From Candidatus Vogelbacteria bacterium RIFOXYD1_FULL_46_19 (lineage in GTDB: Bacteria; Patescibacteriota; Minisyncoccia; Phycocordibacterales; XYD1-FULL-46-19): a stretch of DNA of 64,000 bases. The first letter of the stretch is position 1, and every line of letters starts with the position of its first letter. The DNA lies in NCBI GenBank assembly GCA_001824825.1, contig MHTK01000006.1:57051-121050 (forward strand). The letters are read 5' to 3'. Positions 21,869 through 57,675 of the stretch are shown piece by piece. The notes under the pieces are model-generated. The model was given only the letters and a program-made list of their open reading frames with translations. It searched no databases and was not told where the DNA came from. The translations under genes were made by a program, and so were the position numbers.

Positions 21869-21881
21869 CACCCTCGAAGCT

Positions 21882-21922: not shown

Positions 21923-21945
21923 AATCTTTAAGGCTAAGGTATAAT

Positions 21946-22920
21946 TTGAAAATCATGCCTAAAAAAATCCTTCTCTCGGGCATCAAGCCTACGGGCCGAC
22001 CTCATATTGGCAACTTCTTTGGAGCGATGAAGCAATTTGTCGACTTTCAAGACGAGTATGAATCTTATATTTTCATCCCAGACTACCACGCCCTAACCTC
22101 GGTCCAAGACCGGGAGAAAATGGCTAGCTATACCTTAGACCTAGCTATTGGCCTCCTAGCTATTGGCCTAGACCCCGCTAAAATCACTTTATTTAAACAA
22201 TCAGATGTTCCAGAAGTGACCGAACTCACTTGGATTTTCAATTGTCTCACTACTATGCCTTACCTTATGCGCGCCCACGCTTTCAAGGATGCCGAGGCCA
22301 AAAACAAAGAAATTAATGTCGGAGTGTTTGATTACCCAATGCTAATGGCCGCCGACATTTTAATTCAAGATGCCGACATCGTACCCGTGGGCCAAGACCA
22401 AAAACAACACGTGGAAATTGCCCGCGATACGGCTGAAAAGTTTAATCGCACTTTTGGCGAAACTTTTAAACTACCCTCAAGTTTCATTCAACCAGAGGTA
22501 TCAGTGGTACCCGGTATCGACGGTCGCAAGATGAGCAAAAGCTACAATAACCATATTCCGCTCTTTGCGGGTGACGACGAGGTTAAATCCCTAGTAGCCA
22601 AAATAGTCACCGACTCCAAAACTCCAGACGAACCGAAAGACCCGGCTACCGACAATGTCTTTGCCCTACACCGCTTGTTTAGTGAGGACCAAATTGAAGA
22701 CCTAACCAGTCGTTATCAAGCTGGCACGATCGGCTACAAAGAATCTAAAGATATTTTAGCCGCTAATATTATTAAATTTATTACCCCTCTACGTACCAAG
22801 CGTGAGGCCATTGCCGGCGACACTGCTCACGTTCAAGCCATCCTCACCGAAGGTGGTAAGCGCGCCCGCGAGCACGCCAGCTGCAAGATGGCCGACGTCC
22901 GCCAAAAACTCGGCCTCTAA
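21946..22920 (+). CDS. trpS: tryptophanyl-tRNA synthetase
   Basis: Class I HIGH-like motif TGRPHIGN and KMSKS. Confidence 0.9.
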   Translation: MKIMPKKILLSGIKPTGRPHIGNFFGAMKQFVDFQDEYESYIFIPDYHALTSVQDREKMASYTLDLAIGLLAIGLDPAKITLFKQSDVPEVTELTWIFNCLTTMPYLMRAHAFKDAEAKNKEINVGVFDYPMLMAADILIQDADIVPVGQDQKQHVEIARDTAEKFNRTFGETFKLPSSFIQPEVSVVPGIDGRKMSKSYNNHIPLFAGDDEVKSLVAKIVTDSKTPDEPKDPATDNVFALHRLFSEDQIEDLTSRYQAGTIGYKESKDILAANIIKFITPLRTKREAIAGDTAHVQAILTEGGKRAREHASCKMADVRQKLGL

Positions 22921-22928
22921 TCTTTTTC

Positions 22929-24716: not shown

Positions 24717-24785
24717 GTATCAAGAGAAATTGCTTCTACATAAACTAAGCTTATGTGAGGTAGTAGTTGTGGTATAATATAGTGG

Positions 24786-25034
24786 GCTTGTGGCTTTAAA
24801 GAAAAGTGTTATAGTGAGTAAGTAAGCCTGTGATCCGGCCGACACCGGGGAGGCGAGGGAAGAACCGGTTAGGGAAGCTTTAAGGCGGACTGCGGGTCGC
24901 CTACGAAATAAGCTTCGGCGGACCACAGTAGAACCCTCAAGGAGTAATCAAGATATAAACCAGGGTGGCACCGCGGCCTCGAAACCGCCCCTGCGAATTT
25001 ATTATTTACTAAATAAATTCGGAGGGGCGTTTTT
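24786..25034 (+). promoter_or_regulatory. T-box riboswitch leader, Asp specifier GAC, controlling aspS
   Basis: Extended -10 TGgTATAAT at 24770-24778; AGUGA box at 24813-24817; GAC-A at 24841-24844 in a loop; T-box sequence aaaccagggtggcaccgcgg at 24957-24976; 15-bp terminator stem at 24987-25028 followed by a T-run. Confidence 0.7.
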
Positions 25035-25055
25035 GTATCCCTTCGACAAAATATT

Positions 25056-26384
25056 ATGGAACGAACTTATATTAAAGATCTTAAAAAAAAAGTCGGGGCA
25101 GAGGTTTTACTAAAAGGCTGGGTCGACATCAGACGTGACCACGGTAAACTAATTTTTATTGATCTGCGGGACGTCTCCGGACAAGTGCAGATGGTAGTCT
25201 TGCCCAACCACACCGAGGCTCACACGGCAGCGGAAGCCATCCGGCCCGAGTGGGTGGTAGAGGTGACTGGCACTGTTAACCAAAGGCCAGAAAAAATGGT
25301 GAAAGCCGGTGTCTTAAATGGAGATTTGGAATTGGAAGTCACCGGAATTACGGTTGTAGGTACAGCTAAAGAATTACCATTTGAAAAAGAAGCCGATCTA
25401 AACTTTGACACTTATTTAGATCACTTACCCTTAACTCTAAGAACTGAAAGGTCTAAAAGTATTTTTCGCATTCAAGCTTCAATTATTCAGGCTTTTAGGG
25501 AATATTTAGTGGCTCAAAATTTTACAGAGATTCAAGCTCCTAAACTCATTGGTGATGACGCGGAAGGGGGAGCCAACTCCTTCAATATTGAATATTTTGG
25601 CCACACTGCTCACTTAGCTCAAAGTCCTCAGTTTTATAAACAAATTATGGTTGGTATCTTTGAAAAAGTTTTTACCACCGGAAACGTTTATCGAGCAGAA
25701 AAACACAGCACAACCCGCCACTTAAATGAATACACCAGCTTGGACCTGGAAATGGGGTTCATAGACTCCTTCAGGGATATTTGCTCTACAGAGAATAAAC
25801 TACTAGCTCATATTATGAAGAAACTCTCGGAGACCCGAAGTGAAGACTTTAAAGCCCTCGGCTCAACAATCCCCACAGTTCCAGACTCCATTCCAACTCT
25901 TAAACTCAGGGAGGCCCAAGCCATAATAAAGAAGGAATTCGGTGAAGATTGTTCTAATGAACCCGACCTTGAACCACAACACGAAAGGTGGATTTGTGAG
26001 TATGCTAAAAAAACTTGGGACTCCGATTTCATTTTTATCACTCACTTTCCACTATCCAAACGTCCGATGTATACCTACGAAGACCCAGCTGACCCAGGTT
26101 ATGCAGCCGGATTTGACCTTCTGTTTAGAGGAATTGAAATTACGACCGGCGGCCAACGTATTCACGACTATGATAATCTGGTGACCGCTATTAAAGGAAA
26201 GGGCTTGGAACCAGAAAAGTTCTCTTATTACCTCCAAGCCTTTAAATTTGGAATGCCTCCTCATGGTGGACTAGGTTTAGGGCTAGAGCGTCTAACAGCC
26301 AAGCTGATTGGATTAGACAATGTTAAAGAAGCAACCTTATTTCCCCGAGATCTAAATCGAATAGATAATCTATTATCTAAATAG
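25056..26384 (+). CDS. aspS: aspartyl-tRNA synthetase, archaeal/eukaryotic type (442 aa)
   Basis: Class II motifs FRAE-like, LAQSPQFYKQ, and motif 3 GGLGLGLERL; no bacterial GAD insertion. Confidence 0.85.
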   Translation: MERTYIKDLKKKVGAEVLLKGWVDIRRDHGKLIFIDLRDVSGQVQMVVLPNHTEAHTAAEAIRPEWVVEVTGTVNQRPEKMVKAGVLNGDLELEVTGITVVGTAKELPFEKEADLNFDTYLDHLPLTLRTERSKSIFRIQASIIQAFREYLVAQNFTEIQAPKLIGDDAEGGANSFNIEYFGHTAHLAQSPQFYKQIMVGIFEKVFTTGNVYRAEKHSTTRHLNEYTSLDLEMGFIDSFRDICSTENKLLAHIMKKLSETRSEDFKALGSTIPTVPDSIPTLKLREAQAIIKKEFGEDCSNEPDLEPQHERWICEYAKKTWDSDFIFITHFPLSKRPMYTYEDPADPGYAAGFDLLFRGIEITTGGQRIHDYDNLVTAIKGKGLEPEKFSYYLQAFKFGMPPHGGLGLGLERLTAKLIGLDNVKEATLFPRDLNRIDNLLSK

Positions 26385-26564
26385 GTTTAATTAATTGGCA
26401 ACAATTCGTCGGTTTAGTAATAATAGCTTTCCCGAAAACCGGGGGGGGGCTTAATGATGGACTCGCCGGCCCCCGTCAAAGTTGAACAGTTAACGGAACT
26501 TGGGCTAAAAATTGATCGAAAATAAGTCTACTCGGCTCCTGGATTGGATCCTCTAGTTCATCTA

Positions 26565-26592
26565 TTGACAAATTCTACCTGTTTGTTATAAT
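26565..26592 (+). promoter_or_regulatory. sigma70-like promoter (TTGACA-16-TATAAT)
   Basis: TTGACA at 26565-26570 and TATAAT at 26587-26592. Confidence 0.5.
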
Positions 26593-26598
26593 CTAAAT

Positions 26599-26836
26599 AG
26601 ATAGTTATTATTACTGACAAGCGGTCGGACGGGCTCATCCATTCCCATTCATCCTTTTTCGTCTGTTTTTTCCGTCCGACCGCCGTCAGTTTATGGCATT
26701 TAAGCCCTCCTCAGCGACTCAACCAGTCCGTACCCAAGCCAAAGGGTCGAGTCGCTTCACTAAAGGCCCTAGTAGTTGTGGAATGACTCCCTTACCCCGA
26801 GTCAACCCACGCCGTACTCTAGGGCCTTTTCTTTTT
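26599..26836 (+). ncRNA. candidate small RNA or long structured leader, unclassified
   Basis: Bounded by a consensus promoter and a hairpin (ggccctag...ctagggcc) plus ttttcttttt; contains a 17-bp stem at 26614-26689 and a second stem at 26710-26752; no ORF. Confidence 0.4.
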
Positions 26837-26874
26837 GTCTAAAGGCTATAAAAAAGCTATATTACTAAGTAACT

Positions 26875-27603
26875 ATGAGCGAAAAATTTTCTACTAGAAT
26901 TGGAGACTTCGAGGGGCCACTGGATCTCTTACTTCAACTGATTGAAAAAAACCAACTACACATCAGCCAAGTCAGTATTGCCCAAGTGGCGGACGACTAT
27001 ATCGCCTATATCACGAACCTGTCTAATTTGCCCAAACGCGAAGCGGCAGATTTCTTAGTGATTGCTTCCACTTTAATGCTGATAAAATCAGCTTCACTTT
27101 TACCTAGTCTAAACTTGCTACCAGAAGAAGAGAGGGGCGCAGAAGAATTAGAACTCAGGCTCAAACTATACCAACAAATGCAAACAGCCAGTTTGGATAT
27201 TAAACAGTTGTTTGACCATCAACCCGTTTTCTGGCCGCTACCGCGACGGAACTATGAGCCAGTTTTTGCTCCCAGTGCGGAACTCGTAGTTGATAATCTG
27301 ACAAATGTAATTTTAAAATTACTAGCCGCTTTACCTAAGATAAGCAATCTACCCCAAATTGCGGTCAAAAGGGTCATCAGTCTACAGGAAGCGATGGAAA
27401 AATTAATTCAAAGAATTGAAAGAGCTTTATCACTTAAGTTCAACGATTTTGCTCCCCGTAATCGAGCCGAAAAAGTAAACATTATTGTCAGCTTTTTGGG
27501 TATGCTAGAACTGGTAAAACAGGGAATGATCGAGGTTAACCAAAACGCTCATTTTGAAGACATTGATATGCAGAGTCTAAACCCCACTTTGCCTCGATAC
27601 TAA
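26875..27603 (+). CDS. scpA: segregation and condensation protein A
   Basis: N-terminal F.GPLDLLL.LI....L motif and position directly upstream of scpB. Confidence 0.8.
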   Translation: MSEKFSTRIGDFEGPLDLLLQLIEKNQLHISQVSIAQVADDYIAYITNLSNLPKREAADFLVIASTLMLIKSASLLPSLNLLPEEERGAEELELRLKLYQQMQTASLDIKQLFDHQPVFWPLPRRNYEPVFAPSAELVVDNLTNVILKLLAALPKISNLPQIAVKRVISLQEAMEKLIQRIERALSLKFNDFAPRNRAEKVNIIVSFLGMLELVKQGMIEVNQNAHFEDIDMQSLNPTLPRY

Positions 27604-27660
27604 ACTTTTAGTCCAATTTGTCAAAAGAGTCTTAAAAACGTATAATTTACCCACCTCGAC

Positions 27661-28203
27661 ATGGAGCTCGCCCCCAAAATTGAAGCTATTCTTTTTTACA
27701 AAGCCGAGCCGGTTAGCTTGTCTTGGTTAACCAAGATCCTGGAGGTTAAGCTCGAGGAAATAGAGGTGGCTTTGATTAGTTTAGAATCAGATCTTACTGC
27801 CCGTGGTCTACAACTAGTTCGACATAATGAGAACGTGGCTTTAGGAACAGCTTCCGCCACTAGCGACCTGATAAGTAAAATTACGCAAGAGGAGCTATCG
27901 AAAGATTTGGGTCGAGCCGGTTTGGAAACTCTGACCATTGTGCTTTATCGTGCTCCAATAGCCCGCAGTGAAATCGATTATATTCGAGGAGTCAACTCCA
28001 GTTTCATTTTACGGAATCTAATGATTCGCGGTTTGGTGGAAAGAAAACCCAATCCAAACGACAGTCGCAGTTTCGTCTACCAGCCCACTTTAGACTTACT
28101 CGCTCACCTAGGACTTACTCGGATCGAGGAGTTACCTAATTTTGATAAAGTCCAAGCCGAAATTAAACAATTTTTTACTGACAAAGAAAAAAATGATGAC
28201 TAA
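27661..28203 (+). CDS. scpB: segregation and condensation protein B
   Basis: Two winged-helix repeats (EAILF...P...L / TIVLYRAP..R.EI..IRGV). Confidence 0.85.
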   Translation: MELAPKIEAILFYKAEPVSLSWLTKILEVKLEEIEVALISLESDLTARGLQLVRHNENVALGTASATSDLISKITQEELSKDLGRAGLETLTIVLYRAPIARSEIDYIRGVNSSFILRNLMIRGLVERKPNPNDSRSFVYQPTLDLLAHLGLTRIEELPNFDKVQAEIKQFFTDKEKNDD

Positions 28204-29113
28204 CCCAAAAATCTACCTCCGACTAATTGCCCTCGGAACCAGCACGCTGATTGTAGTTTTTACCTTCTTGTGGTTACCTTCCTGGCCAGCCGTTTCCCCA
28301 CCAGTAGTGGCCGCTGAAACTGCTCCGGTAAAAACTGATCCGGCCGCCTTTTTTGCTAATCTTAATTTAGAAGCGAAAGCGGTCATGGTTTGGGATGTCG
28401 AAAATCGGCAAGTTTTATATGAGAGTAACGCTGACCAGCAGTTACCCCTAGCTTCAATTACTAAAATTATGACGGCCTTAGTAGCGGCCGATATTTTTGC
28501 TGACAGTGATTTAATTACCATTAGTCCGAGTGCTTTGGCTGGGGGTAGTAACGCTGGCTTACTAGAAGGGGATACTTGGACTTTCAAAGATCTAATAGAC
28601 TATAAATTAACTACGTCCTCCAACGGAGCCTCCAGTGCCATCGCCGAAGCAGCTAATCAAAAAACAAATAACGACTTTATAACCCGCATGAATAGTACTG
28701 CCTCCACCTTAGGTTTAGACAAAACCTATTTTATTAACGCCACCGGCCTAGACGTGGGCGAGCTTTACGGTGGATCTTATGGTAGTGCCCGAGACATAGC
28801 CATCCTCTTGTCTCACATCATTACCAGAAAACCGGACTTGATGACGGCCACTACCAAAAGCTCAATCAACCGAACTTCCCAAAGTGGACGAACTTATACC
28901 GGGAAAAACACCAATGATATCCTCAACCAAATACCAGGCTTACTGGCCTCTAAAACCGGTTATACTCTAGCGGCTGGCGGCAATTTGGCTATCGCCTTCG
29001 ATGCCGGCTTACGCCAACCGGTCGTCATTGTAGTTTTAGGCTCCAGCTTAGATGGGCGCTTTAGAGATGTGTTGAAACTAACTGGAGCCACTTTTAATTA
29101 TTTTTCTAATTAG
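28193..29113 (+). CDS. D-alanyl-D-alanine carboxypeptidase, serine type (PBP5/DacA-like, S11)
   Basis: Signal/TM segment, SxxK (ASITK), SxN (SSN) and KTG (KTGYT). Confidence 0.8.
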   Translation: MMTNPKIYLRLIALGTSTLIVVFTFLWLPSWPAVSPPVVAAETAPVKTDPAAFFANLNLEAKAVMVWDVENRQVLYESNADQQLPLASITKIMTALVAADIFADSDLITISPSALAGGSNAGLLEGDTWTFKDLIDYKLTTSSNGASSAIAEAANQKTNNDFITRMNSTASTLGLDKTYFINATGLDVGELYGGSYGSARDIAILLSHIITRKPDLMTATTKSSINRTSQSGRTYTGKNTNDILNQIPGLLASKTGYTLAAGGNLAIAFDAGLRQPVVIVVLGSSLDGRFRDVLKLTGATFNYFSN

Positions 29114-29124
29114 AAATTAAAACC

Positions 29125-30183
29125 ATGATGTTAAGTATAGTCAAAGTGTTTGCCCCAACAGCTATCGCCTTCTTTTTAGGTATTGCTATGACACCGGTTT
29201 TGACTCATTACTTATACAAACATCGCTTGTGGAAAAAGAAGTCGGGGAAAGTTGCTCCCGACGGCCGCGACACGCCCATCTTCAACAAACTCCACGCTCA
29301 TAAAGAAACAGGCACCCCACGAATGGGCGGCATTATTATTTGGGCCAGTGCTCTTTTAACCATTGCTGTCATCTGGATTATCTCTCAAATTTTTCCAACC
29401 GACATTACCACTAAACTGGACTTCTTAAGTCGTAATCAAACGTGGCTACCACTGTTTACCTTACTGGTTGCCTCCGGTCTCGGCTTGGTGGATGATTGGC
29501 TGCAAATCCGAGAACCCAAAGACGGTCAGAACGGGGGGCTGTCTTTCAGTCGCCGTTTGGTAGTAGTAACCGCCCTAGGTTTGGGTGCCGGTTGGTGGTT
29601 TTACTATAAATTAGGCGTCAGCACTATTCACATCCCTTTTGGCGCTGATTTAGAGGTTGGTGTCTGGCTCATTCCCATTTTTATCGGAATTATGCTAGCC
29701 CTTTTTTCTAGCGGAGTCATAGACGGAATCGATGGCTTGTCGGGGGGTATTATGTCGATTATTTTTGGGGCTTACGCCGGAATTGCTTTTTTTCAAAATC
29801 AAATCGACTTGGCCGCTTTTTGCGCGGTAATTATGGGGGGCACACTGGCTTTTTTGTGGTTTAATATCCCGCCGGCCCGATTTTATATGTCAGAAACAGG
29901 CATTCTCGGACTAACTACCACTTTAACAGTAGTAGCTTTTTTAACCGACTCCGCCTTGTGGCTACCGATTATTGCTTTTCCTTTATTTATTACTTCACTA
30001 TCGGTGGTAATTCAATTGGTTTCCAAAAAACTTCGCCACGGTCGCAAGATTTTCTTGGTCGCTCCTGTTCATCATCACTTTGAAGCCATTGGCTGGCCAG
30101 CAGCCAAAGTGGTGATGCGCTACTGGGTAGTAGGAATCATTACCGCTATTATTGGTATGATTTTGATTCTCCTAGATAAATAA
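29125..30183 (+). CDS. mraY: phospho-N-acetylmuramoyl-pentapeptide transferase
   Basis: Ten TM helices, GTPRMGG, LGLVDDW and position in the dcw order. Confidence 0.9.
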   Translation: MMLSIVKVFAPTAIAFFLGIAMTPVLTHYLYKHRLWKKKSGKVAPDGRDTPIFNKLHAHKETGTPRMGGIIIWASALLTIAVIWIISQIFPTDITTKLDFLSRNQTWLPLFTLLVASGLGLVDDWLQIREPKDGQNGGLSFSRRLVVVTALGLGAGWWFYYKLGVSTIHIPFGADLEVGVWLIPIFIGIMLALFSSGVIDGIDGLSGGIMSIIFGAYAGIAFFQNQIDLAAFCAVIMGGTLAFLWFNIPPARFYMSETGILGLTTTLTVVAFLTDSALWLPIIAFPLFITSLSVVIQLVSKKLRHGRKIFLVAPVHHHFEAIGWPAAKVVMRYWVVGIITAIIGMILILLDK

Positions 30184-30184
30184 A

Positions 30185-31300
30185 ATGACCACTCGCCTCA
30201 CTGCTAAAAATCAAAGTCGAACTTTTTTAATTTTGATTCTGACAATCTCAGTGGTTGGTTTTTTTATTTTTCTGTCAGCTTCACTGGGAATGGTAGGCAG
30301 TGAAATTAGTGGCTTCATTAAGGTTGGTCTAAAACAGTTAATGGTGCTTCTAGGGGGCTTGGTCCTGATGGTTTTACTCTCAAACTTAAATTATAAACAT
30401 TGGCGGCAATGGTCTTTACCACTGTTGGTGGTCGCTCTGGGGGCCACTGCTTTGGTTTTTATTCCCGGTTTAGGAGTAGATTCCGGCGGGGCTACTCGCT
30501 GGATCGGCCTCGCCGGTTTTACGGTTCAACCAGGGGAGTTACTTAAGCTAGGCGTTATAATTTACTATGCCGCTTGGCTTTCCTCCGCCAAAGCTAGGGC
30601 TGGCACTTTTACTAAAGGCGTAATGCCTTTACTTATCCTGCTTGCCCTAGCCGGGTTACTACTACTTAGCCAGCCCGACACTGGTACTTTTCTCGTAATT
30701 GCTTTAGCAATGGTCTGCCAGTTTATAGTGGCCGGCGGTAAGTGGCGACACTTAGTACTCCTGGCTCTAATCGGTGCTATAGCCCTAGGGTCACTGGTGG
30801 CCACTAGGCCTTACCTACGCAGTCGGTTGGCTACCTTCTTAGATCCAGCCGCCGATCAGCTTGGTTCTTCATACCAAATAAATCAATCCCTAATTGCCAT
30901 TGGTTCTGGGGGAGTTTTTGGTCGAGGGTTTGGTCAAAGTTTACAAAAGTTTAGCTTCTTGCCTCAACCGATCGGGGACTCCATTTTTGCGGTCGCGGCT
31001 GAGGAATTTGGTTTTGTTGGCTCCCTGGTCATCATACTTTTATTTTTACTTTTTATGATTACCGGACTTAAAATTGCGGCTCGAGCGCCCGATACTTTTG
31101 GTAGACTTATCGTACTAGGGCTTGTTATACTCATAGTGTCACAATCCTTTATAAACATTGGAGCAATGTTGGGACTTTTGCCCTTAACTGGTGAGCCTTT
31201 AATTTTTGTGTCGCAAGGAGGTAGTGCTCTCTTGTTTGGCCTGGTGGCCGCCGGAATTATATTAAACGTCTCACGCCACGAAACCAAAGCCATTAAATAA
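30185..31300 (+). CDS. ftsW: SEDS-family peptidoglycan glycosyltransferase (FtsW/RodA)
   Basis: Polytopic protein; PGELLKLG and position between mraY and murG. Confidence 0.85.
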   Translation: MTTRLTAKNQSRTFLILILTISVVGFFIFLSASLGMVGSEISGFIKVGLKQLMVLLGGLVLMVLLSNLNYKHWRQWSLPLLVVALGATALVFIPGLGVDSGGATRWIGLAGFTVQPGELLKLGVIIYYAAWLSSAKARAGTFTKGVMPLLILLALAGLLLLSQPDTGTFLVIALAMVCQFIVAGGKWRHLVLLALIGAIALGSLVATRPYLRSRLATFLDPAADQLGSSYQINQSLIAIGSGGVFGRGFGQSLQKFSFLPQPIGDSIFAVAAEEFGFVGSLVIILLFLLFMITGLKIAARAPDTFGRLIVLGLVILIVSQSFINIGAMLGLLPLTGEPLIFVSQGGSALLFGLVAAGIILNVSRHETKAIK

Positions 31301-31390
31301 TACTCTCGAGATGAGAACGAATTCCATTATTAACCAACTGCCACCGCTAAATTTAAAATTATTAATAGTGGTGACTAATTTTTCATAAAG

Positions 31391-32518
31391 ATGCGAATTT
31401 TATTTACCGGTGGGGGCACGGGGGGACATTTTTACCCCATCATTGCGGTGGCCGAGGAACTACGAGCCGTCGTTTATGAAGAAAAGCTGGTCGGATCCAA
31501 GCTCTACTTCATGTCGGACAAGCCCTATAATGAAAAGTTGTTATTAGAAAACGATATTCGCTTCGTAGTGGCCGCCGCCGGCAAGTGGCGTCGCTACTTT
31601 TCCATTTTAAATTTTACCGATTTATTTAAAATTGGTTTTGGTATTGGGCAAGCCATTTGGAAAATGTTTTGGATTTACCCCGATGTAATTTTTAGCAAAG
31701 GCGGTTATGCGAGTGTACCGGCCGTCTGCGCTGGCCGAATCTTAGGGATTCCTATTTTTATTCACGAGTCTGACTCCCAACCTGGTCGAGCTAATTTATG
31801 GGCCGGAAAATTTGCCCAGCGTATCGCTTTGTCATACGAGGAAGCAGCCAGCTATTTCGAGACCAAGAAAACGGCGGTCGTCGGCAATCCACTGCGCCGA
31901 GAAATTTTAAATCCCATTCCTCAAGGAGCCAAAAAATTTCTTAAACTGGAAGAGGATTTACCCATTATCTTGGTTTTAGGTGGTTCACTTGGATCGCAGT
32001 GCATTAATAATGTTCTGCTAGAATCTCTACCGGAACTACTGGAGTCTTACCAAATAATTCACCAAACCGGTAAACAAAATTTTGCTGATGTAAAAGCCCG
32101 CACTCAAGTTATATTGAAAGATAACCCCAACTCCAAGCGTTACCAAACGTTTGAATATTTAAATGACCTAGCGATGCGAATGGCCGCCGGAGTGGCCGAC
32201 TTGGTTGTTTCCCGGGCCGGATCCGCCATCTTTGAAATTGCACATTGGGAAATTCCGGCTATTATTATTCCCATTCCAGAGACCATTAGTCACGACCAAC
32301 GGAGCAACGCTTTTACTTATGCCCGCTCCGGTGGAGCGGTAGTAATCGAAGAAAATAATTTGTCACCTTCGGTCTTAACCTTAGAGATAAAACGTATTTT
32401 GACAGATCCACGACTGGCGGCCGAAATGCAGATCGGGGCCAAGAATTTTGCCCGGCCGGAAGCCGCTCGCCTGATTGCTAAAGAAATTTTAGACATTGCC
32501 ATCCAACATGAAATCTAA
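31391..32518 (+). CDS. murG: UDP-GlcNAc:undecaprenyl-PP-MurNAc-pentapeptide GlcNAc transferase
   Basis: TGGGTGGH N-terminus and GT-B fold motifs. Confidence 0.9.
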   Translation: MRILFTGGGTGGHFYPIIAVAEELRAVVYEEKLVGSKLYFMSDKPYNEKLLLENDIRFVVAAAGKWRRYFSILNFTDLFKIGFGIGQAIWKMFWIYPDVIFSKGGYASVPAVCAGRILGIPIFIHESDSQPGRANLWAGKFAQRIALSYEEAASYFETKKTAVVGNPLRREILNPIPQGAKKFLKLEEDLPIILVLGGSLGSQCINNVLLESLPELLESYQIIHQTGKQNFADVKARTQVILKDNPNSKRYQTFEYLNDLAMRMAAGVADLVVSRAGSAIFEIAHWEIPAIIIPIPETISHDQRSNAFTYARSGGAVVIEENNLSPSVLTLEIKRILTDPRLAAEMQIGAKNFARPEAARLIAKEILDIAIQHEI

Positions 32519-33827
32519 CCAGTCTATAGTTACACGCTTTGCCCCCAGTCCCACCGGACTTTTACACGCCGGTAATTATCGAACGGCCGTTTTTGCCTAC
32601 CTATTTGCCCGCCAACATAAAGGTAAATTCATTTTACGCCTTGAAGACACTGACCGTGAGCGCAGCCGGCCGGAATACGAGGCTAATATTTTAGACAGTC
32701 TAAGTTGGCTAGGGCTAGAGTATGATGAGTTACACCACCAATCTAAGCGAAGTGAACATCACCGGGCTTATTTAGAAAAAATGATCGCCGGTGGCCAAGC
32801 TTATATCTCCAAGGAAACTCCGGTTAAAGAAGGGGGACGCAGTGAAGTCATTCGTTTCAAAAATCCCAATCGGACAGTGACTTTTACTGACCTCATCCGC
32901 GGTGAAATAATTTTTGACACCACCGAGCTGGGAGATTTTGTGATTGCCAAATCTTTAGATGAACCCCTCTTTCACTTGGCCGTGGTAGCCGATGATGCCG
33001 ACTTAGGTATCACTCACATCATCCGAGGTGAAGATCACATTTCCAACACTCCACGTCAGATATTAATCCAAGAAGCTATCAACGCTCCCACCCCTTTGTA
33101 TGCTCACTTGCCACTAGTCTTGGCTCCAGACCGCTCTAAACTCTCCAAGCGCAAAGGGGCCCTAGCCTTAACCGAGTACCGCAAGCAAGGCTATTTACCG
33201 GAAGCCCTCCTTAACTTTATGACCATGCTCGGCTGGAACCCTGGTACCGACGAAGAAGTTTTGTCTAAGGCCGAGCTAATGGAAAAATTCAACTTGTCTA
33301 AAGTCCAAAAGGCTGGTGCCATTTTCAATGAAGAAAAACTGCGGTGGTTCAACCGAGAGCATTTGCGCCGCCGCCCGGCCGGTGAGCTAAAACAGCTGGT
33401 TTTAGCTAAAATTCCCAACTTAAGCTCTTTGCCTGAAATAAGTCTAGAACGCCTGTTACCGGTTATTTTAGAGCGAGTAGAGACTATAGCAGACCTTGAC
33501 CGGATGAAAGAAGAGGGGGAGTGGGATTACTTCATTGAAACCCCCACGATCTTACCTGAACTTTTAAAAACCCCAAAACACCTACCAGCTTTAGTCAATA
33601 TTTTAGAGCAAGTCCCAGTTGAAAAATTTACTGCCGAAGTCATCAAGGAGACGGTGTGGGATTTTGCTACTAAAGAGGGGAGGAGTGAGGTGCTGTGGCC
33701 GATGCGAGTGGCCTTAACCGGCCGAGCCAAATCACCAGATCCCTTTATCGTAGCGTCTATTTTAGGTAAAGAAAAAACGATCAATCGGTTAAACCAAGGA
33801 ATAGTACTTATCGGAGACGTTAATTAG
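32496..33827 (+). CDS. gltX: glutamyl-tRNA synthetase (start may be the ATG at 32508)
   Basis: RFAPSPTG..H.G and KLSKRKG. Confidence 0.9.
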   Translation: MPSNMKSNQSIVTRFAPSPTGLLHAGNYRTAVFAYLFARQHKGKFILRLEDTDRERSRPEYEANILDSLSWLGLEYDELHHQSKRSEHHRAYLEKMIAGGQAYISKETPVKEGGRSEVIRFKNPNRTVTFTDLIRGEIIFDTTELGDFVIAKSLDEPLFHLAVVADDADLGITHIIRGEDHISNTPRQILIQEAINAPTPLYAHLPLVLAPDRSKLSKRKGALALTEYRKQGYLPEALLNFMTMLGWNPGTDEEVLSKAELMEKFNLSKVQKAGAIFNEEKLRWFNREHLRRRPAGELKQLVLAKIPNLSSLPEISLERLLPVILERVETIADLDRMKEEGEWDYFIETPTILPELLKTPKHLPALVNILEQVPVEKFTAEVIKETVWDFATKEGRSEVLWPMRVALTGRAKSPDPFIVASILGKEKTINRLNQGIVLIGDVN

Positions 33828-33884
33828 ACGAACGAATAGATCTAAGACTTTGCCCTTGGGTTTAATACCCTTTATAATAGGGCT

Positions 33885-35168
33885 ATGAATGCTCGATATT
33901 TTAAATATACTGCTTGGTGTCTGTTTTTTTTGATAATTCTCGTCCTTACACCGCAAACCAACGCTCAATCAGTGGATGAGCTGAAAAACCAAATCACTTC
34001 CAAAAATAGTGAAATCGCTCAACTGGAAAAAGAAATTGCCGAGTATCAGAAAAAAATTGCCGCCACCAAAGGCCAGTCTAGTACTCTAAACGCCGAGTTG
34101 GCGCGCCTAGAGAGCTCGAAGAAAAAATTGGAAACCGACGTGGCTTTAACTCGTAAAAAAATCAGTGCTACCGAACTAACCATTAAAAAGCTAGGTAGTG
34201 AAATAGCCACTAGCGCTAGTAAAATTGAAACCAACCACCTAGCCGTGGCAGCGGCTTTACGAGAAATGAAAGACGCTGATACTTTCAACTTCACGGTCGC
34301 CTTTTTAAGTAATGACACTTTGTCCGATTTTTTAAACGACTACGCCACCCTGGAATCTTTTCGCGGTAAACTCGAGGCCCAGATTTTAGAGCTTAAAAAG
34401 ACTAAAACTACCTACGAAAAACAAAAGAGTGAATCGGAAGAAGAAAAACTAGCTTTGACTTCACTCCAATCAAAATTAGCCGACCAACGACAGATTGTCA
34501 CTCAGAACCAGTCAGAGAAAAGCGTTTTACTGTCCCAAACTAAAGCCCAAGAGGCTAGCTACCAGCAACTCCTGGCCGACCGCATCGCCAAGAAAAATGC
34601 AGTGGAGGCGGAAATTAGGAAAGCTGAAGATGCTTTAAACCTCATTGTTAACCCGGGATCCCTGCCGGCCACCGGGCGGGGAGTAATTAAGTGGCCTTTT
34701 GATAAAGTAGTAGTGACTCAATACTTTGGCAACACTCCTTTTGCCACCGCTAACGCCCAGATTTATAAGGGAGCTGGTCATAATGGTATAGACCTGGCGG
34801 CGGCCGTGGGAACCCCGGTCAAAGCGGTTCTAGACGGAACAGTGATTGGGGTAGGAGATACCGACTTAACCTGTCCGCGAGCCTCTTATGGTCGCTGGGT
34901 GATGGTGAGGCATAATAATGGCCTCTCGAGCGTTTACGGTCATCTTTCCCTACCGAAAGTAGTTGAGGGTCAGACAGTAAAAACCGGTGACATCGTAGCT
35001 TATAGTGGCAACACCGGCTACACTACCGGGCCACACTTGCACTTCACTCTCCTCGCGACCCAAGGCTCCCAAATCGGTTCCTTGCAGTCTAAGGTGCCCG
35101 GTTGCGGGGTTTACCGAATTCCCTTGGCCACTAAAGAAGCAGTTCTTAACCCTTTATCTTATCTATAA
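33885..35168 (+). CDS. M23-family peptidase with an N-terminal coiled coil (EnvC-like)
   Basis: Signal peptide, long coiled coil, HNGID and HLHF zinc motifs. Confidence 0.8.
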   Translation: MNARYFKYTAWCLFFLIILVLTPQTNAQSVDELKNQITSKNSEIAQLEKEIAEYQKKIAATKGQSSTLNAELARLESSKKKLETDVALTRKKISATELTIKKLGSEIATSASKIETNHLAVAAALREMKDADTFNFTVAFLSNDTLSDFLNDYATLESFRGKLEAQILELKKTKTTYEKQKSESEEEKLALTSLQSKLADQRQIVTQNQSEKSVLLSQTKAQEASYQQLLADRIAKKNAVEAEIRKAEDALNLIVNPGSLPATGRGVIKWPFDKVVVTQYFGNTPFATANAQIYKGAGHNGIDLAAAVGTPVKAVLDGTVIGVGDTDLTCPRASYGRWVMVRHNNGLSSVYGHLSLPKVVEGQTVKTGDIVAYSGNTGYTTGPHLHFTLLATQGSQIGSLQSKVPGCGVYRIPLATKEAVLNPLSYL

Positions 35169-35211
35169 AATAGAGTAAATAATTATTAATCACTTTTTGA
35201 AACATTAATCT

Positions 35212-35493
35212 ATGGCTTCCAAGCAAAACTCAGGCGGTTTTATCAAAATTATCCTAATCATTATTGTTCTGGTGATTGTGCTGGGAATTTTTAAAATTGA
35301 CCTAAGAGCCATAACGGATTCAGAAGTTACCCAGCGAAATATGGACGTCATAAAAGAAGCGGGGGATAAAGTCTGGGTTTTTGGCCTCCATGTGTGGGAA
35401 AATTACATTAAAGAGCCGGCTTTATGGGTCTGGAATCAGGTCGTTTTGGAACAAATTTGGCCGATCATATCAGATTGGTGGACCAGTCATTAG
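35212..35493 (+). CDS. small hypothetical membrane protein
   Basis: 93 aa with one TM helix. Confidence 0.35.
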   Translation: MASKQNSGGFIKIILIIIVLVIVLGIFKIDLRAITDSEVTQRNMDVIKEAGDKVWVFGLHVWENYIKEPALWVWNQVVLEQIWPIISDWWTSH

Positions 35494-35539
35494 CTAAAAA
35501 ACCCTTTAAATATAACGTTTTTTTGCCATCTAAAAACGC

Positions 35540-35568
35540 TTGACAATGGTCGAGCCCCTTGCTATAAT
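35540..35568 (+). promoter_or_regulatory. sigma70-like promoter (TTGACA-17-TATAAT)
   Basis: TTGACA at 35540-35545 and TATAAT at 35563-35568. Confidence 0.5.
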
Positions 35569-35627
35569 ATTGACAGTTACTTACATTGTGTGTGATAGTA
35601 TGTAACTCTTAAATTCACCATCACGCA

Positions 35628-35649
35628 AAACACTGCAAAGTGTTTTTTT
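35628..35649 (+). terminator. terminator/attenuator hairpin within the leader
   Basis: aaacactgc-aaa-gtgttt followed by ttttt, about 60 nt after the promoter. Confidence 0.45.
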
Positions 35650-35737
35650 CTTTGGAATCCGCTTCCCACTACAAGTGGCGGACTCTGAAGTTTAAAATTT
35701 AGCCCTACGGCTTATTTTACGAACTTTACAAATAGGC

Positions 35738-36205
35738 TTGGCAAGCCTTATAGCTGTCACAAATATTACTCCTACCACTGCCGGTGTTCCGGTTTCGACC
35801 GCGACCGCCGACCAGGTAGAAGTTGCGCAACTTGTCACTGAGTCCGAAGTAGCCCCAACCCAAAGTAATTCAGATTTATCGATTCCTGAGCTAATTGCAA
35901 TACATAGTAAGGAACAAGGGGTTGATGTGAAACTGGCTCAAGCAATTGCATTTTGTGAAAGCACCAATCGTCAATTTATTGACGATAATATGACTCCGTT
36001 ACGCGGTCTTCATAATCCACTAGACGTCGGTATCTTTCAAATTAATGAGAAGTACCACCTCGAGAAAAGTCAGGAGCTTGGCTTTGATATTTACACCATC
36101 ACGGGTAATATCGACTATGCTCTCTGGCTCTTAAAAAACGGGGGTTCCCGTCACTGGAATTGGAGCCGACCGTGCTGGTCTCAGAAAATAAACCCTGTCG
36201 CTTAA
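35738..36205 (+). CDS. secreted transglycosylase-like (Rpf/IsaA/SLT-like) domain protein; start uncertain
   Basis: AIAFCES.N.Q....DVGIFQIN..H resembles the lysozyme-like transglycosylase domain; the annotated ATG sits inside a perfect palindrome. Confidence 0.5.
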   Translation: MASLIAVTNITPTTAGVPVSTATADQVEVAQLVTESEVAPTQSNSDLSIPELIAIHSKEQGVDVKLAQAIAFCESTNRQFIDDNMTPLRGLHNPLDVGIFQINEKYHLEKSQELGFDIYTITGNIDYALWLLKNGGSRHWNWSRPCWSQKINPVA

Positions 36206-36225
36206 ACCCGACAGGGTTTATTGGT
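36190..36225 (+). terminator. terminator hairpin overlapping the stop codon
   Basis: aaaccctgtcg-cttaaacc-cgacagggttt followed by att. Confidence 0.5.
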
Positions 36226-37007
36226 TGCCGAGAATACCCGGTCGGCTGCTTGTCTGCCTTTGGCTGAGGTGGCAGGCTTGGTTAAATATTAAGTACCAAA
36301 TTGCCAATTTAATAAAATTATCGTTATAATAGACAGCTGATGGAACGAGCTAGTTAACTCAACTTCCATCCTAGGAGCGGCCAATTACCTTCATCATCTG
36401 TTGTGCGGCCGCTTTTTACATTTAGACTAATTCCGGTCATTCTTTATGTTTTATTTAGACGTCGAACAGTGGAAAGAGGATTTACTAAACCTATTTAAAC
36501 ATCTGCCCAGCATCATCGCCTGGGTCTTTTACTTGATTTACAAAAAAATTGAGAACAAATTCCACCCAAAAACTTAATTTCATCCGTCTCAATTTTATTA
36601 TTTAAATGTCTTACGTCGCAAAATCTATATTGTGCGACGTTATATTAAAAACTCAGGAGCTGAACCTCTCCCTCTAATTATCTGATACCCAACCCCCTAC
36701 CCCGATCTACCTATCCAGTACGATCGTCTAAGATAAGGGGGTTCCCCGATTTAATATTATTTATATTAACCCTTGTTTGGTACCAGTTGTCTCCCCCGCC
36801 GACCGGTAGGGAAGTGAGTGGTAATTTTTTACAGATTAAGATTTCGGCTTTATCACCAACCACTCCCCTTGCATTTTGGAGAAAAAAATGGACAATTAAA
36901 TTTGGTGCACTTGGGTCTCTCAATAAAAAAGGATGGGATCTATATGGTAGCTAAGTCGCGCGGGAAGAATACTGGTCCTAAAACCAATTGCTTTCATCGT
37001 CGTCGGA

Positions 37008-37033
37008 CCCACCAAGGTCCACTTCCCAACCCC
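37008..37033. repeat. copy 1 of an exact 26-bp repeat, cccaccaaggtccacttcccaacccc (copy 2 at 57311-57336)
   Basis: Identical 26-mer at two loci 20 kb apart; the flanks are unrelated. Confidence 0.9.
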
Positions 37034-37132
37034 AGCGCGGAGGTCGCGGACTTCCGCTACAAGGTGACGGAGGTTTACCCTCCGCCTGGAACGAACCGGG
37101 GTCCGAATAAGAAGTAGGCCCCCTTTCGTCTG

Positions 37133-37168
37133 AAGCCTCGCCCAACGTGCACCGGCGAGGCTTTTTTC
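37133..37168 (+). terminator. intrinsic terminator ending a short plus-strand transcript of unknown content
   Basis: aagcctcgcc...ggcgaggctt followed by tttttt. Confidence 0.6.
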
Positions 37169-37213
37169 TTACCCTTAATTAAACCTAATAAAATAAGTAG
37201 CACCCTTAGAAAA

Positions 37214-51139: not shown

Positions 51140-51211
51140 CTACGCTGTGACCCTACCGGGAATCGAACCCGGATTGCCGCCTTGAGAAGGCGATGTCCTA
51201 ACCGTTAGACG
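51140..51211 (-). tRNA. tRNA-Glu (anticodon CUC), 72 nt, CCA not encoded
   Basis: Manual fold: 7-bp acceptor stem with one G-U, D-arm, anticodon loop ttCTCaa, T-arm ccggg-ttcgatt-cccgg, discriminator A. Confidence 0.85.
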
Positions 51212-51376
51212 ATAGGGCCAGAAGGAAGCAATATAGTGTATGAAGTATACTGTATTTAGTATATGAGACTTCCTATACAAAATACCATATACGACATACT
51301 CCATACTATCTCAGTCATCAATTATACGGAAAAATGGCCTAAAATCAAGACAAAAAAACAGTTAAATTTCCTTAAC

Positions 51377-56785: not shown

Positions 56786-57220
56786 TTAAAGGGCGCCGAT
56801 TTCGCCTAATTTTTCCGCCAACATATCAGCCTGTTTTTTGACCCGACCGGTATAATCTTTCCAACGGTTTTCGTCCCATATTTCTAGCCGGCTATGCAAA
56901 CCCGCGATTACCACCTTGGTCGAGAGTCCGGCAAACTCTCGTTGGAAGTCTGGTAAGAGAATACGCCCCATGGCATCAACATCAGTCTCCACCGCTCCTC
57001 CGAGCATAAAACGGTTAAAATCGCGGGTGCTCGCCTGGCCGAGGGAAAGGTTAGCCAACCCTTGGGCTGCTTTTTCCCACTCCTTCAAGGGATAAACAAA
57101 AAGACAGTTATCTAAGCCGTAAGTGACCACTACCTTTTTGCCAATCTCCTTTCTAAACTTGGCGGGTAAAGCCAAACGCTTTTTGACGTCAATTGTGTGC
57201 CGGTATTCTCCTATCAACAT
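56786..57220 (-). CDS. mraZ: transcriptional regulator MraZ
   Basis: Two DXXXR-containing repeats (IDVKKRLALP / DAMGRILLP) and the first position in the dcw cluster. Confidence 0.9.
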   Translation of the reverse strand: MLIGEYRHTIDVKKRLALPAKFRKEIGKKVVVTYGLDNCLFVYPLKEWEKAAQGLANLSLGQASTRDFNRFMLGGAVETDVDAMGRILLPDFQREFAGLSTKVVIAGLHSRLEIWDENRWKDYTGRVKKQADMLAEKLGEIGAL

Positions 57221-57250: not shown

Positions 57251-57336
57251 GAAATAGTATTTTTGGCAAAATACTATTTCCCACTTCTTCCCACTACACT
57301 GATAGTATAACCCACCAAGGTCCACTTCCCAACCCC
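57251..57336 (-). promoter_or_regulatory. mraZ promoter/operator region
   Basis: On the minus strand: TTGGGA-17-TATACT, then GTGGGAA-gaa-GTGGGAA direct repeats 10 bp apart, then a perfect 13-4-13 palindrome (plus-strand 57251-57280); the 26-bp repeat copy 2 at 57311-57336 spans the -35 box. Confidence 0.5.
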
Positions 57337-57348
57337 GGTTATCCACAT

Positions 57349-57386
57349 AAAACTCAACCGCCGGCGGTCGCCGGCGGTTGAGTTTT
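57349..57386 (-). terminator. strong hairpin ending the lysS-side transcript just upstream of the mraZ promoter
   Basis: aaaactcaaccgccggcg-gtc-gccggcggttgagtttt. Confidence 0.6.
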
Positions 57387-57675
57387 ACCCCCTCCCTAAT
57401 CACCAATTACAGCACATCTGTCCCTATCCAAGGTTTAACCTTGGACTCCATTATTACACCACACCAACCACCATCCTGAAGTTTAACTTCGGGATGGGAG
57501 GGAGGGTGGTGTAATATTGCTTATTGGCGTGCCAGAATACCCCGAGGCTTTGCCTCGGGGATAGGAGGCACTAACGACAGGAACGGCGGAGCCGTTTCTT
57601 CTACCAAAAAACCAGCCCTGGTGCCTTCGCCTAATATCCCGCCCCTTTGCCTCGGGGATAGGACGAAGAACTGGT

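What the first reader, a model, noticed from the sequence alone, without database searches (positions are those of the whole stretch)
37008..37033. Exact 26-bp repeat shared between a non-coding spacer and the -35 region of the mraZ promoter
cccaccaaggtccacttcccaacccc occurs at 37008-37033 and again at 57311-57336 with unrelated flanks. A chance exact 26-mer in 64 kb is about 1e-6. On the minus strand it reads GGGGTTGGGAAGTGGACCTTGGTGGG, rich in TGGG-type half-sites, and at the second locus it supplies the -35 box of the mraZ promoter. This points to a shared transcription-factor binding site, possibly MraZ autoregulating plus a second target, or a shared small element.
Basis: seen in the sequence. 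Interest (0 to 1): 0.55.

Follow-up and report, generated by a model that had tools for sequence, protein, structure and literature searches.

The report
Stray copy of mraZ promoter-operator fragment
A 27-base stretch that forms the front half of the self-regulated promoter of the cell-division gene mraZ also occurs once more, 20 kb away, as a promoter-less stray copy in a strain-variable spacer of a groundwater Vogelbacteria (CPR) genome. It is a real repeat but most likely an evolutionary leftover rather than a second regulatory target.

Summary
The repeat is real. It is exact over 27 nt (37007-37033 and 57310-57336, same strand, 20,303 bp apart) with unrelated flanks. At 57.3 kb, read on the minus strand, it is the upstream half of the mraZ promoter-operator. 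It holds the -35 hexamer TTGGGA and two MraZ-type boxes (GTGGA-N5-GTGGG), and it abuts the -10 hexamer TATACT. A second box pair lies 31 nt downstream. In 75 of 75 related Paceibacteria species a GTGG-N6-GTG[G/T] pair lies upstream of mraZ, and in 69 of 75 two pairs lie exactly 31 nt apart. Only the boxes, and partly the -35, are conserved among those relatives. At least nine other positions of the 26-mer vary freely, so 27/27 identity at the second site means copying, not convergence on a binding motif. The copy at 37.0 kb has no -10. It lies in a 1-kb spacer between convergent genes that differs by three indels among conspecific strains. One strain type has deleted it with 244 nt. Another (97% identity) has rewritten its middle and lost box 1, while all strains keep the promoter copy intact. 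No further copies were found in any collection. Verdict: a known kind of operator plus a decaying ectopic fragment. A second MraZ target is not supported.

The parts
57310..57336 (-). Promoter copy of the 27-mer (GGGGTTGGGAAGTGGACCTTGGTGGGT on the minus strand): the upstream half of the mraZ promoter-operator.
   Evidence: Identical in all ten conspecific contigs that reach it, including the 96.7%-identity lineage L002.
57327..57332 (-). -35 hexamer TTGGGA of PmraZ.
   Evidence: TTGGGA-17-TATACT, 9/12. The column is moderately conserved as TTGnnn in relatives.
57321..57325 (-). MraZ box 1 (GTGGA).
   Evidence: Box definition from PMC12957436.
57311..57315 (-). MraZ box 2 (GTGGG), 10 nt after box 1 and abutting the -10.
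57304..57309 (-). -10 hexamer TATACT. It lies just outside the repeat and is absent at the other site.
   Evidence: Relatives have ATATAA or TATACT at the same register.
57280..57294 (-). MraZ boxes 3 and 4 (GTGGGaagaaGTGGG), starting exactly 31 nt after box 1.
   Evidence: 31-nt spacing in 69 of 75 relatives.
57339..57347 (-). Perfect DnaA-box 9-mer TGTGGATAA, 22 nt upstream of box 1.
   Evidence: a DnaA-like box lies within 60 nt upstream in 63 of 69 relatives, mostly at 20-22 nt.
57348..57387 (-). Terminator hairpin of the upstream lysS unit. It insulates PmraZ from read-through.
   Evidence: (I18).
56786..57220 (-). mraZ (144 aa) with D11xxxR15, D82xxxR86 and K13. It is the first gene of mraZ-rsmH-ftsL-PBP.
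37007..37033 (-). Ectopic copy of the 27-mer. It keeps the -35-like hexamer and boxes 1'-2' (37018-37022, 37008-37012) but is followed by CCGACG instead of a -10.
36818..37061 (.). 244-nt segment that holds the ectopic copy. It is present in the window type and in L109/L110, and deleted in L015/L017 between AAGTGA/AGGTGA microhomologies.
36944..37117 (+). Orphan 57-codon ORF that reads the repeat as THQGPLPNP. Its coding status is doubtful.
   Evidence: Called as a gene in only 2 assemblies. No homologues, no Pfam hit. Codon score 0.0 against 0.31±0.13 for real genes.
37130..37188 (+). 59-nt strain-variable segment with a + strand terminator hairpin (37133-37170) followed by a T-run. It is absent in L015/L017.

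Best explanation
The 27-mer belongs to the mraZ promoter. On the minus strand at 57336..57310 it carries the -35 hexamer (TTGGGA) and the first two of four MraZ boxes (GTGGA-N5-GTGGG). The -10 (TATACT) follows 1 nt later, and boxes 3-4 (GTGGG-N5-GTGGG) start exactly 31 nt after box 1. By analogy with characterised MraZ proteins, an MraZ oligomer is inferred to lay one subunit on each GTG(G/T) box at a 10-bp period. Here that would be on both sides of the -10, covering the RNA-polymerase site and repressing mraZ-rsmH-ftsL-PBP. The second occurrence (37033..37007) is a paralogous fragment copied from this promoter into a hypervariable spacer between convergent genes. The copying took place before the sampled strains of this species diverged (about 3% divergence). 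The fragment brought the -35 and two boxes but no -10, so it is not a promoter. With two boxes it can at best be a weak MraZ site. It is now decaying: rewritten in one lineage and deleted in another. Shown: the repeat, the promoter and box layout, its conservation across relatives, and the strain polymorphism. Inferred: MraZ binding, repression, the direction of copying, and the neutrality of the copy.
For: (1) The repeat is exact, 27 nt long, and has unrelated flanks. (2) The only promoter-like site upstream of mraZ uses the repeat for its -35 and spacer. (3) In 75 of 75 GTDB relatives with at least 230 nt upstream, a GTGG-N6-GTG[GT] pair lies upstream of mraZ. In 69 of 75 two pairs lie exactly 31 nt apart, as in the window. 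The density is 11.4 per kb against 0.039 per kb per strand elsewhere in the same loci. (4) The per-column information profile shows only positions 12-16 and 21-26, and partly 3-8, of the 26-mer are conserved. Positions 1-2, 9-11 and 17-20 vary, even in the closest relatives L019-L021 (MraZ 87-90% identical). Identity at all 27 positions therefore reflects common descent. (5) The window MraZ keeps K13, R15 and R86 and both DXXXR motifs. These residues contact GTG(G/T) boxes in the cryo-EM structures (PMC12957436). GTGG repeats mediate repression in B. subtilis (bioRxiv 10.1101/2022.02.09.479790). (6) The promoter copy is invariant in every strain contig, including L002 (96.7% identity) and L010. 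The 37-kb copy is deleted in L015/L017. It reads GGGGTTGGG-TTTGTTGGAT-CCTTGGTGGGT in L109/L110. (7) There is no -10 or promoter-like site on the minus strand at 37.0 kb. (8) The syntenic slot in family-level relatives (L111-L116) has different genes, no box pair and no homology.
Against: No binding or expression data exist for this organism. The L109 variant still shares 9+4+11 nt with the promoter, and both variants are multiples of 3 nt (27 and 30) within ORF57. This could reflect selection on a reading frame or on the site. The 138 nt upstream of the variable middle are 100% identical between lineages that differ by about 3-5% elsewhere in this spacer, which hints at some constraint on this stretch. 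The polarity of the window/L109 difference is unresolved for lack of an outgroup. A short-patch conversion from the promoter is an alternative to simple retention. Only 64 kb plus flanks of the genome could be searched, so further copies elsewhere in this genome are not excluded.
Confidence: 0.7

Rival explanations
1. The 37-kb copy is a functional second MraZ operator or decoy. MraZ would bind its two boxes and modulate the small + strand unit (ORF57 plus terminator), or titrate MraZ.
For: It is the only GTGG-N6-GTGG pair in the 64-kb window outside PmraZ. Two-box DNA is still bound by M. genitalium MraZ, though more weakly (PMC12957436). The surrounding 138 nt are unusually conserved between the window and L109.
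Against: It is not near any promoter-like site. Box 1 is destroyed in L109/L110, and the whole site is deleted in L015/L017, while PmraZ stays intact in the same samples. The syntenic position in relatives has no box pair. Chance two-box pairs occur at about 0.04 per kb per strand, so tens are expected per genome.
Confidence: 0.12
2. Concerted evolution. An older, already diverged paralogous site (L109-like) was re-homogenised in the window lineage by short-patch gene conversion or template switching from PmraZ. On this reading the perfect identity is recent.
For: The L109 variant differs from the window only in the middle of the 27-mer. Its 11- and 9-nt ends are identical to the promoter and could have served as microhomology. 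No template for the L109 middle was found in the window or in L109.
Against: It needs two events (an old duplication and then a conversion) where one would do. The donor is 20 kb away. With about 3% divergence, 27 nt are expected to stay identical by simple retention.
Confidence: 0.12
3. The repeat is the end or core of a small mobile element (MITE-like), or the attL/attR pair of an integrated 20.3-kb element.
For: The two copies are direct repeats 20,303 bp apart. The 37-kb copy sits in an indel-rich spacer.
Against: There are only two copies in the window. There are none in GTDB species genomes, JGI metagenome contigs (13 unrelated chance hits) or viral contigs. There are no terminal inverted repeats, and the flanks are unrelated. 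The 20 kb in between encode CysS, DnaB, RecR, RmuC, pyrophosphatase, tRNA-Glu, a Mur ligase and PBPs, with no integrase. Strains that lack the 37-kb copy keep the same gene order.
Confidence: 0.02
4. The repeat is constrained as RNA or peptide: a shared sRNA seed, or the peptide THQGPLPNP of a real small protein, ORF57.
For: ORF57 has an RBS-like AAGGATGGGA and is followed by a terminator. The window/L109 difference is +3 nt, which keeps the frame. The region folds somewhat better than shuffles (z = -2.7 and -3.1).
Against: There is no Rfam family at either site. There are no protein homologues among 5.8 billion clusters and no Pfam hit. The codon score lies below the 5th percentile of real genes. 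At 57.3 kb the repeat lies upstream of the transcription start, behind a terminator, so it is not expected in the mraZ mRNA. ORF57 straddles a deletion boundary in L015.
Confidence: 0.05

Closest known systems
MraZ-binding repeats (MraZ boxes) in the mra/dcw promoter: E. coli (Eraso et al. 2014, cited in PMC8475190), B. subtilis (bioRxiv 10.1101/2022.02.09.479790), Mycoplasma (PMC12957436)
   Same: [quoted passage not shown] The cognate MraZ has K13, R15, R86 and two DXXXR motifs. The boxes overlap core promoter elements, as expected for autorepression.
   Different: Published operators have three contiguous boxes, or four in some Mycoplasma. Here, and in 69 of 75 Paceibacteria, the boxes form two pairs 31 nt apart that bracket the -10 hexamer, with the missing middle register occupied by the -10. 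A DnaA-like box usually sits 20-22 nt upstream. No binding has been tested for any CPR MraZ.
Extra two-box GTGG-N6-GTGG sites outside Pmra in B. subtilis (13 double repeats reported; bioRxiv 10.1101/2022.02.09.479790)
   Same: An isolated two-box match away from the mraZ promoter, of unknown occupancy.
   Different: The B. subtilis sites are motif matches only. Here the extra site is identical to the promoter at every one of 27 positions, including unconstrained ones, so it is a copy rather than an independent motif occurrence.
Short ectopic sequence duplications or filler DNA left by templated repair or template switching in bacterial intergenic regions (general knowledge)
   Same: A short exact copy with unrelated flanks in an indel-rich, strain-variable spacer. 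It has no mobile-element features and decays subsequently.
   Different: The mechanism is not demonstrated here. No junction microhomology between donor and recipient flanks was seen.

Membership tests
MraZ operator (MraZ-binding repeats) | Lies immediately upstream of mraZ at the head of the dcw cluster. | tested here: met
   For 57310-57336: mraZ (Pfam PF02381, E=4e-36), then rsmH, ftsL-like and PBP downstream. The 37-kb copy is not next to mraZ.
MraZ operator (MraZ-binding repeats) | Three or more GTG(G/T) boxes in direct orientation at a 10-bp period (6-nt spacers). | tested here: met
   At 57.3 kb there are four boxes at relative positions 0, 10, 31 and 41. The definition comes from PMC12957436. 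The 2+2 split is a variant of the contiguous array.
MraZ operator (MraZ-binding repeats) | The same feature (three or more boxes) at the 37-kb copy. | tested here: not met
   Only two boxes are present (37022..37008). No further GTGG at helical register occurs in the flanks.
MraZ operator (MraZ-binding repeats) | Boxes conserved in orthologous regions of relatives. | tested here: met
   Promoter site: 75 of 75 relatives have a pair, and 69 of 75 have both pairs at 31 nt. The 37-kb site is not conserved: it is deleted in L015/L017, box 1 is lost in L109/L110, and it is absent from L111-L116.
MraZ operator (MraZ-binding repeats) | Cognate MraZ with the DNA-contacting residues K13, R15 and R86 (DXXXR motifs). 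| tested here: met
   D11VKKR15, D82AMGR86 and K13 are present.
MraZ operator (MraZ-binding repeats) | Sequence-specific binding by MraZ and repression of the promoter. | not testable with these tools
   This needs EMSA, DAP-seq or a reporter assay.
Sigma-70-type promoter | -35 and -10 hexamers 16-18 nt apart. | tested here: met
   57332..57304 TTGGGA-17-TATACT. At 37.0 kb the -10 position reads CCGACG and no site is reported, so that copy does not meet this feature.
MITE / small interspersed repeat | Many dispersed copies with terminal inverted repeats and target-site duplications. | tested here: not met
   There are two copies only and no terminal inverted repeats. There are 0 hits in GTDB genomes, 0 in JGI contigs and 0 in viral contigs.
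attL/attR of an integrated element | Direct repeats flanking cargo that includes an integrase or recombinase and is variably present. | tested here: not met
   The interval holds housekeeping genes and no integrase. Gene order is kept in strains that lack one copy.
Known RNA family (Rfam 15) | Covariance-model match at or near the gathering score. | tested here: not met
   The only match at gathering score is tRNA-Glu at 51148-51219. Low-score matches at both sites are chance-level.

The most novel reading that the evidence does not exclude
The 37-kb copy is a working satellite operator. MraZ would bind its two boxes, and the site would be kept identical to the promoter by recurrent short-patch conversion. 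This would tie a strain-variable small-gene cassette near a possible replication terminus, or the free MraZ pool, to the cell-division regulator in a minimal CPR genome.
Probability: 0.08. Interest if true: 0.5.

Novelty: new member of a known kind. Interest (0 to 1): 0.22.

Why it matters
The repeat itself is of little consequence. It shows that a short piece of a promoter-operator can be copied elsewhere and then decay. It also shows that exact short repeats should be checked against strain variation before being read as regulons. The useful by-product is comparative. It gives the first sequence-level description, to my knowledge, of the mraZ promoter-operator in Paceibacteria (CPR). The layout is four GTGG boxes in two pairs exactly 31 nt apart around the -10, usually preceded by a DnaA-type box at a fixed distance. 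That is a testable hint that these minimal bacteria couple the control of division genes to both MraZ and DnaA.

Tried and rejected
- Rfam at gathering score over the whole window, and at E<=10 over both sites: only tRNA-Glu, the rest chance-level.
- ARAGORN: no tRNA or tmRNA at either site.
- Exact 26-mer in GTDB species genomes: 0 hits.
- 22-nt core in JGI metagenome contigs: 0 hits.
- Loose pattern GGGGTTGGG-N5-12-CCTTGGTGGGT in JGI contigs: 13 hits, all unrelated in context and GC content, about the number expected by chance.
- 22-nt core in viral contigs: 0 hits.
- BLAST of the 1-kb spacer against the window and all fetched loci, looking for patchwork origins: only the 27-mer.
- Search for a template of the L109 variant middle: none found.
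- ORF57 as a protein family: no Pfam hit, no homologues, poor codon score.
- RNA folding of 36925-37175 on both strands: z = -2.7 and -3.1, suggestive but not diagnostic.
- Island or att hypothesis: Pfam scan of the interval found housekeeping genes only.
- Outgroup for the 37-kb site: the neighbouring 139-aa protein drops from 95% to 55% identity with nothing in between. The syntenic slot in those relatives is unalignable.
- Look-up of the 152-aa TTG-start version of the neighbouring gene failed. The 139-aa ATG-start version is the one on record.
- Literature search for a DnaA box at the mraZ promoter: no relevant paper in the held library. The hits were the author name Mrazek.

Full report
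**Observation.** The 26-mer CCCACCAAGGTCCACTTCCCAACCCC is present exactly twice, at 37008-37033 and 57311-57336, both on the + strand. No further match appears even with three mismatches, and none in 100 dinucleotide-preserving shuffles. The identity extends by one base (A at 37007 and 57310) to 27 nt. BLAST of the whole 36206-37213 spacer against the window returns only this 27-mer as significant, so the flanks are unrelated. The copy at 37 kb is found in independent assemblies (L011, L013, L014), so it is not an assembly artefact.

**Organism and context.** The window (45% G+C) comes from a groundwater member of the Candidate Phyla Radiation. Identical MraZ proteins occur on Rifle-aquifer and other groundwater contigs. 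The closest GTDB genomes are labelled Candidatus Vogelbacteria, Paceibacterota or Saccharibacteria.
- At 57.3 kb the repeat lies between the terminator of lysS (hairpin 57348-57387) and mraZ (56786-57220, minus strand; Pfam MraZ E=4e-36). mraZ is followed by rsmH, an ftsL-like gene and a PBP.
- At 37.0 kb the repeat lies in a 1-kb spacer between convergent genes. These are an SLT-like 155-aa gene (+ strand) and a 139-aa gene with a weak Ada_Zn_binding hit (- strand).

**What the 57.3-kb copy is.** Read on the minus strand, the region is TGTGGATAA-cc-GGGGTTGGGAAGTGGACCTTGGTGGGT-TATACT-atcagtgta-GTGGGaagaaGTGGG. The only sigma-70-like site in 56700-57800 is TTGGGA-17-TATACT at 57332..57304. The repeat therefore supplies the -35 hexamer and the whole spacer, and it ends 1 nt before the -10.

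Inside the repeat are GTGGA and GTGGG, 10 nt apart. A second pair, GTGGG/GTGGG, starts 31 nt after the first. The pattern GTGG-N6-GTGG occurs only three times in the 64-kb window: these two pairs and the 37-kb copy.

Published work defines MraZ operators as GTG(G/T) boxes separated by six nucleotides. Most bacteria have three boxes and some Mycoplasma have four. The boxes are contacted by Lys13, Arg15 and Arg86, and DNA with fewer boxes binds more weakly (PMC12957436). In B. subtilis three GTGG[A/T]G repeats are required for repression (bioRxiv 10.1101/2022.02.09.479790). The MraZ of this window has D11xxxR15, D82xxxR86 and K13.

**Comparative test.** I fetched mraZ loci from 80 GTDB species with MraZ 60-90% identical to the window protein.
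- Of the 75 loci with at least 230 nt upstream, all 75 have a GTGG-N6-GTG[GT] pair on the mraZ strand.
- In 69 of the 75, two pairs lie exactly 31 nt apart.
- The density is 11.4 per kb, against 0.039 per kb per strand in the remaining 421 kb of the same loci.
- The aligned consensus is ...tTGgtgg..gGTGGGa.aaAGTGGTaTATAaTgt....GTGGTGGGAgAtAGTGGta.

The window fits this layout exactly. MraZ binding itself remains an inference.

**Why the identity means copying, not a shared motif.** The information profile shows that only some positions of the 26-mer are conserved among relatives. These are positions 12-16 and 21-26 (the boxes) and, partly, 3-8 (the -35). Positions 1-2, 9-11 and 17-20 vary freely. 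The closest relatives read aTTGTTTGGAAAGTGGAGGCTGGTGGGa (L019) and TTGATTTGGTAAAGTGGCGGGAGGTGGGa (L021). Two independent binding sites would not agree at all 27 positions, so the two sites are copies of one another. The promoter copy sits at the orthologous position of a conserved architecture and is invariant in every strain. It is therefore the likely source.

**What the 37-kb copy is.** On the minus strand the copy is followed by CCGACG where the promoter has TATACT. No promoter-like site is reported there. The spacer that holds it is polymorphic among conspecific strains.
- Type (i) is the window and L011, L013 and L014.
- Type (ii) is L015 and L017, about 99% identical in the flanks. It lacks 36818-37061 (244 nt, bounded by AAGTGA/AGGTGA) and hence the repeat. 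It also lacks 37130-37188 (59 nt, a + strand terminator hairpin). It carries 345 extra nt with a small gene in place of 36592-36597.
- Type (iii) is L109 and L110, about 96-97% identical overall (about 95% across this spacer). It has all three segments. The 244-nt segment is therefore older than the split, and type (ii) is a deletion.

In type (iii) the site reads ACCCACCAAGG-ATCCAACAAA-CCCAACCCC, against ACCCACCAAGG-TCCACTT-CCCAACCCC in the window. The ends are identical, but the middle is rewritten. This turns box 1 (GTGGA) into TTGGA and shifts the spacing. Contigs from the same samples keep the promoter 26-mer intact: L002 (96.7% identical to the window) and L010. The duplication therefore predates about 3% sequence divergence, and the copy has since been altered once and deleted once.

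At the syntenic slot of family-level relatives (L111-L116) the gene content differs even between close genomes. There is no box pair and no homology to the window's spacer.

**Other readings tested.**
- *Mobile element or att site.* No copies were found in GTDB genomes, JGI metagenome contigs or viral contigs. A loose two-arm pattern gave 13 unrelated hits, about the chance expectation. There are no terminal inverted repeats. The 20.3 kb between the copies encode CysS, DnaB, RecR, RmuC, pyrophosphatase, tRNA-Glu, a Mur ligase and PBPs, with no integrase.
- *RNA.* No Rfam family matches at either site. Folding z-scores of -2.7 and -3.1 are unremarkable.
- *Peptide.* A 57-codon ORF (36944-37117, + strand) reads the repeat as THQGPLPNP. 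It has an RBS-like sequence and a downstream terminator, and the L109 variant differs by +3 nt, which keeps the frame. Against that, it has no homologue among 5.8 billion protein clusters and no Pfam hit. Its codon score of 0.0 is below the 5th percentile of real genes (0.31±0.13). It also straddles the type (ii) deletion boundary. I regard its coding status as doubtful.

**Mechanism, with levels of support.**
- *Shown:* the repeat, the promoter and box layout, its conservation in relatives, and the strain polymorphism.
- *Inferred from established MraZ biology:* MraZ subunits occupy the four boxes on both sides of the -10 and repress transcription of mraZ-rsmH-ftsL-PBP.
- *Inferred from the pattern of variation:* the 37-kb copy arose by a one-off templated copy of 27 bp of the promoter. 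It lacks promoter function, can at most bind MraZ weakly through two boxes, and is evolving neutrally.
- *Unresolved:* whether the window lineage retained the original copy or was re-homogenised by short-patch conversion from the promoter. No outgroup exists in the accessible data, because the neighbouring protein drops from 95% to 55% identity.

**Comparison with known systems.** The 57.3-kb site meets the testable defining features of an MraZ operator: position, box sequence and period, conservation, and cognate residues. It differs from described operators in its 2+2 split around the -10. The 37-kb site fails the tests for three or more boxes, for promoter association and for conservation. 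It resembles the isolated two-box matches reported in B. subtilis, except that it is a literal copy.

**Verdict.** This is a real repeat with an ordinary explanation: a known kind of operator plus a decaying ectopic fragment. The 'second MraZ target' reading is not excluded, but it is not supported (about 0.1). Interest is low for the repeat itself. The conserved Paceibacteria promoter layout and the adjacent DnaA-type box (63 of 69 relatives, mostly 20-22 nt upstream of box 1) are the more interesting by-products.

Noticed in passing
window 57339-57347 (minus strand); loci L019-L097 upstream of mraZ: A DnaA-box 9-mer (TGTGGATAA or its complement, at most 1 mismatch) lies within 60 nt upstream of MraZ box 1 in 63 of 69 related Paceibacteria promoters. 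Thirty are exact, 49 are in the same orientation, and 44 lie at 20-22 nt; the window has 22 nt. The density is about 23 times the background of the same loci. No paper in the held library links a DnaA box to the mraZ promoter. This may couple division genes to DnaA.
   Followed up: partly
window 57280-57336; L018-L097: The Paceibacteria mraZ operator is split. Two box pairs lie exactly 31 nt apart and bracket the -10 hexamer in 69 of 75 species. Described operators instead have three or four contiguous boxes.
   Followed up: yes
window 57252-57279 (minus strand): A near-perfect palindrome (12 of 13 arm positions pair), AAATAGTATTTT-GCC-AAAAATACTATTT, lies in the mraZ leader immediately after box 4. 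Many relatives have an analogous hairpin at the same place (for example tatactatgaaaatagtata). Its function is unknown and the pattern was not quantified.
   Followed up: no
window 57390-57675: About 290 nt of apparently structured non-coding sequence lie between lysS and the terminator. They include two copies of a 31-nt hairpin unit (57536-57566 and 57633-57663; AATACCCCGAGGCTTTGCCTCGGGGATAGGA, 87% identical). No Rfam family matches.
   Followed up: partly
window 36206-37213; L015, L017, L109, L110: This spacer between convergent genes is hypervariable. Three indels (345, 244 and 59 nt) segregate among strains that are 97-99% identical. A small + strand gene is present in L015 and L109 but absent from the window. 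There is a strong promoter-like site, TTGCCA-18-TATAAT, at 36301-36330 (+ strand). A 43-codon ORF (36446-36577) has gene-like codon usage (score 0.28).
   Followed up: partly
window ~20000-37000: GC skew is positive before about 20 kb, near zero from 20 to 36 kb, and strongly negative after 36 kb. Gene orientation becomes convergent at 36.2-37.2 kb. This may be a replication terminus or simply a switch of gene strand. It could explain why the spacer is an indel hot spot.
   Followed up: no
L111-L116 (syntenic to window 33.9-40.8 kb): The block CorA-CtpA-L9-L27-(139-aa homologue) is conserved across relatives. The slot after the 139-aa homologue holds different genes in each genome (MscL/RNase T, small ORFs, or a 422-aa ORF), even between two close Vogelbacteria assemblies. 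The 139-aa protein itself evolves fast (95% and then at most 55% identity).
   Followed up: partly
window 3360-3368 and 10926-10934 (+ strand): Two further perfect TGTGGATAA DnaA-box 9-mers. That makes three in the window against 0.45 expected, and no shuffle reached three.
   Followed up: no
L012 and L016 contig ends: Two metagenome contigs end exactly at polymorphic points of this spacer. L012 ends inside the 27-mer, just before its variable middle. L016 ends at the 244-nt deletion boundary. This fits co-existing strain variants breaking the assemblies.
   Followed up: no
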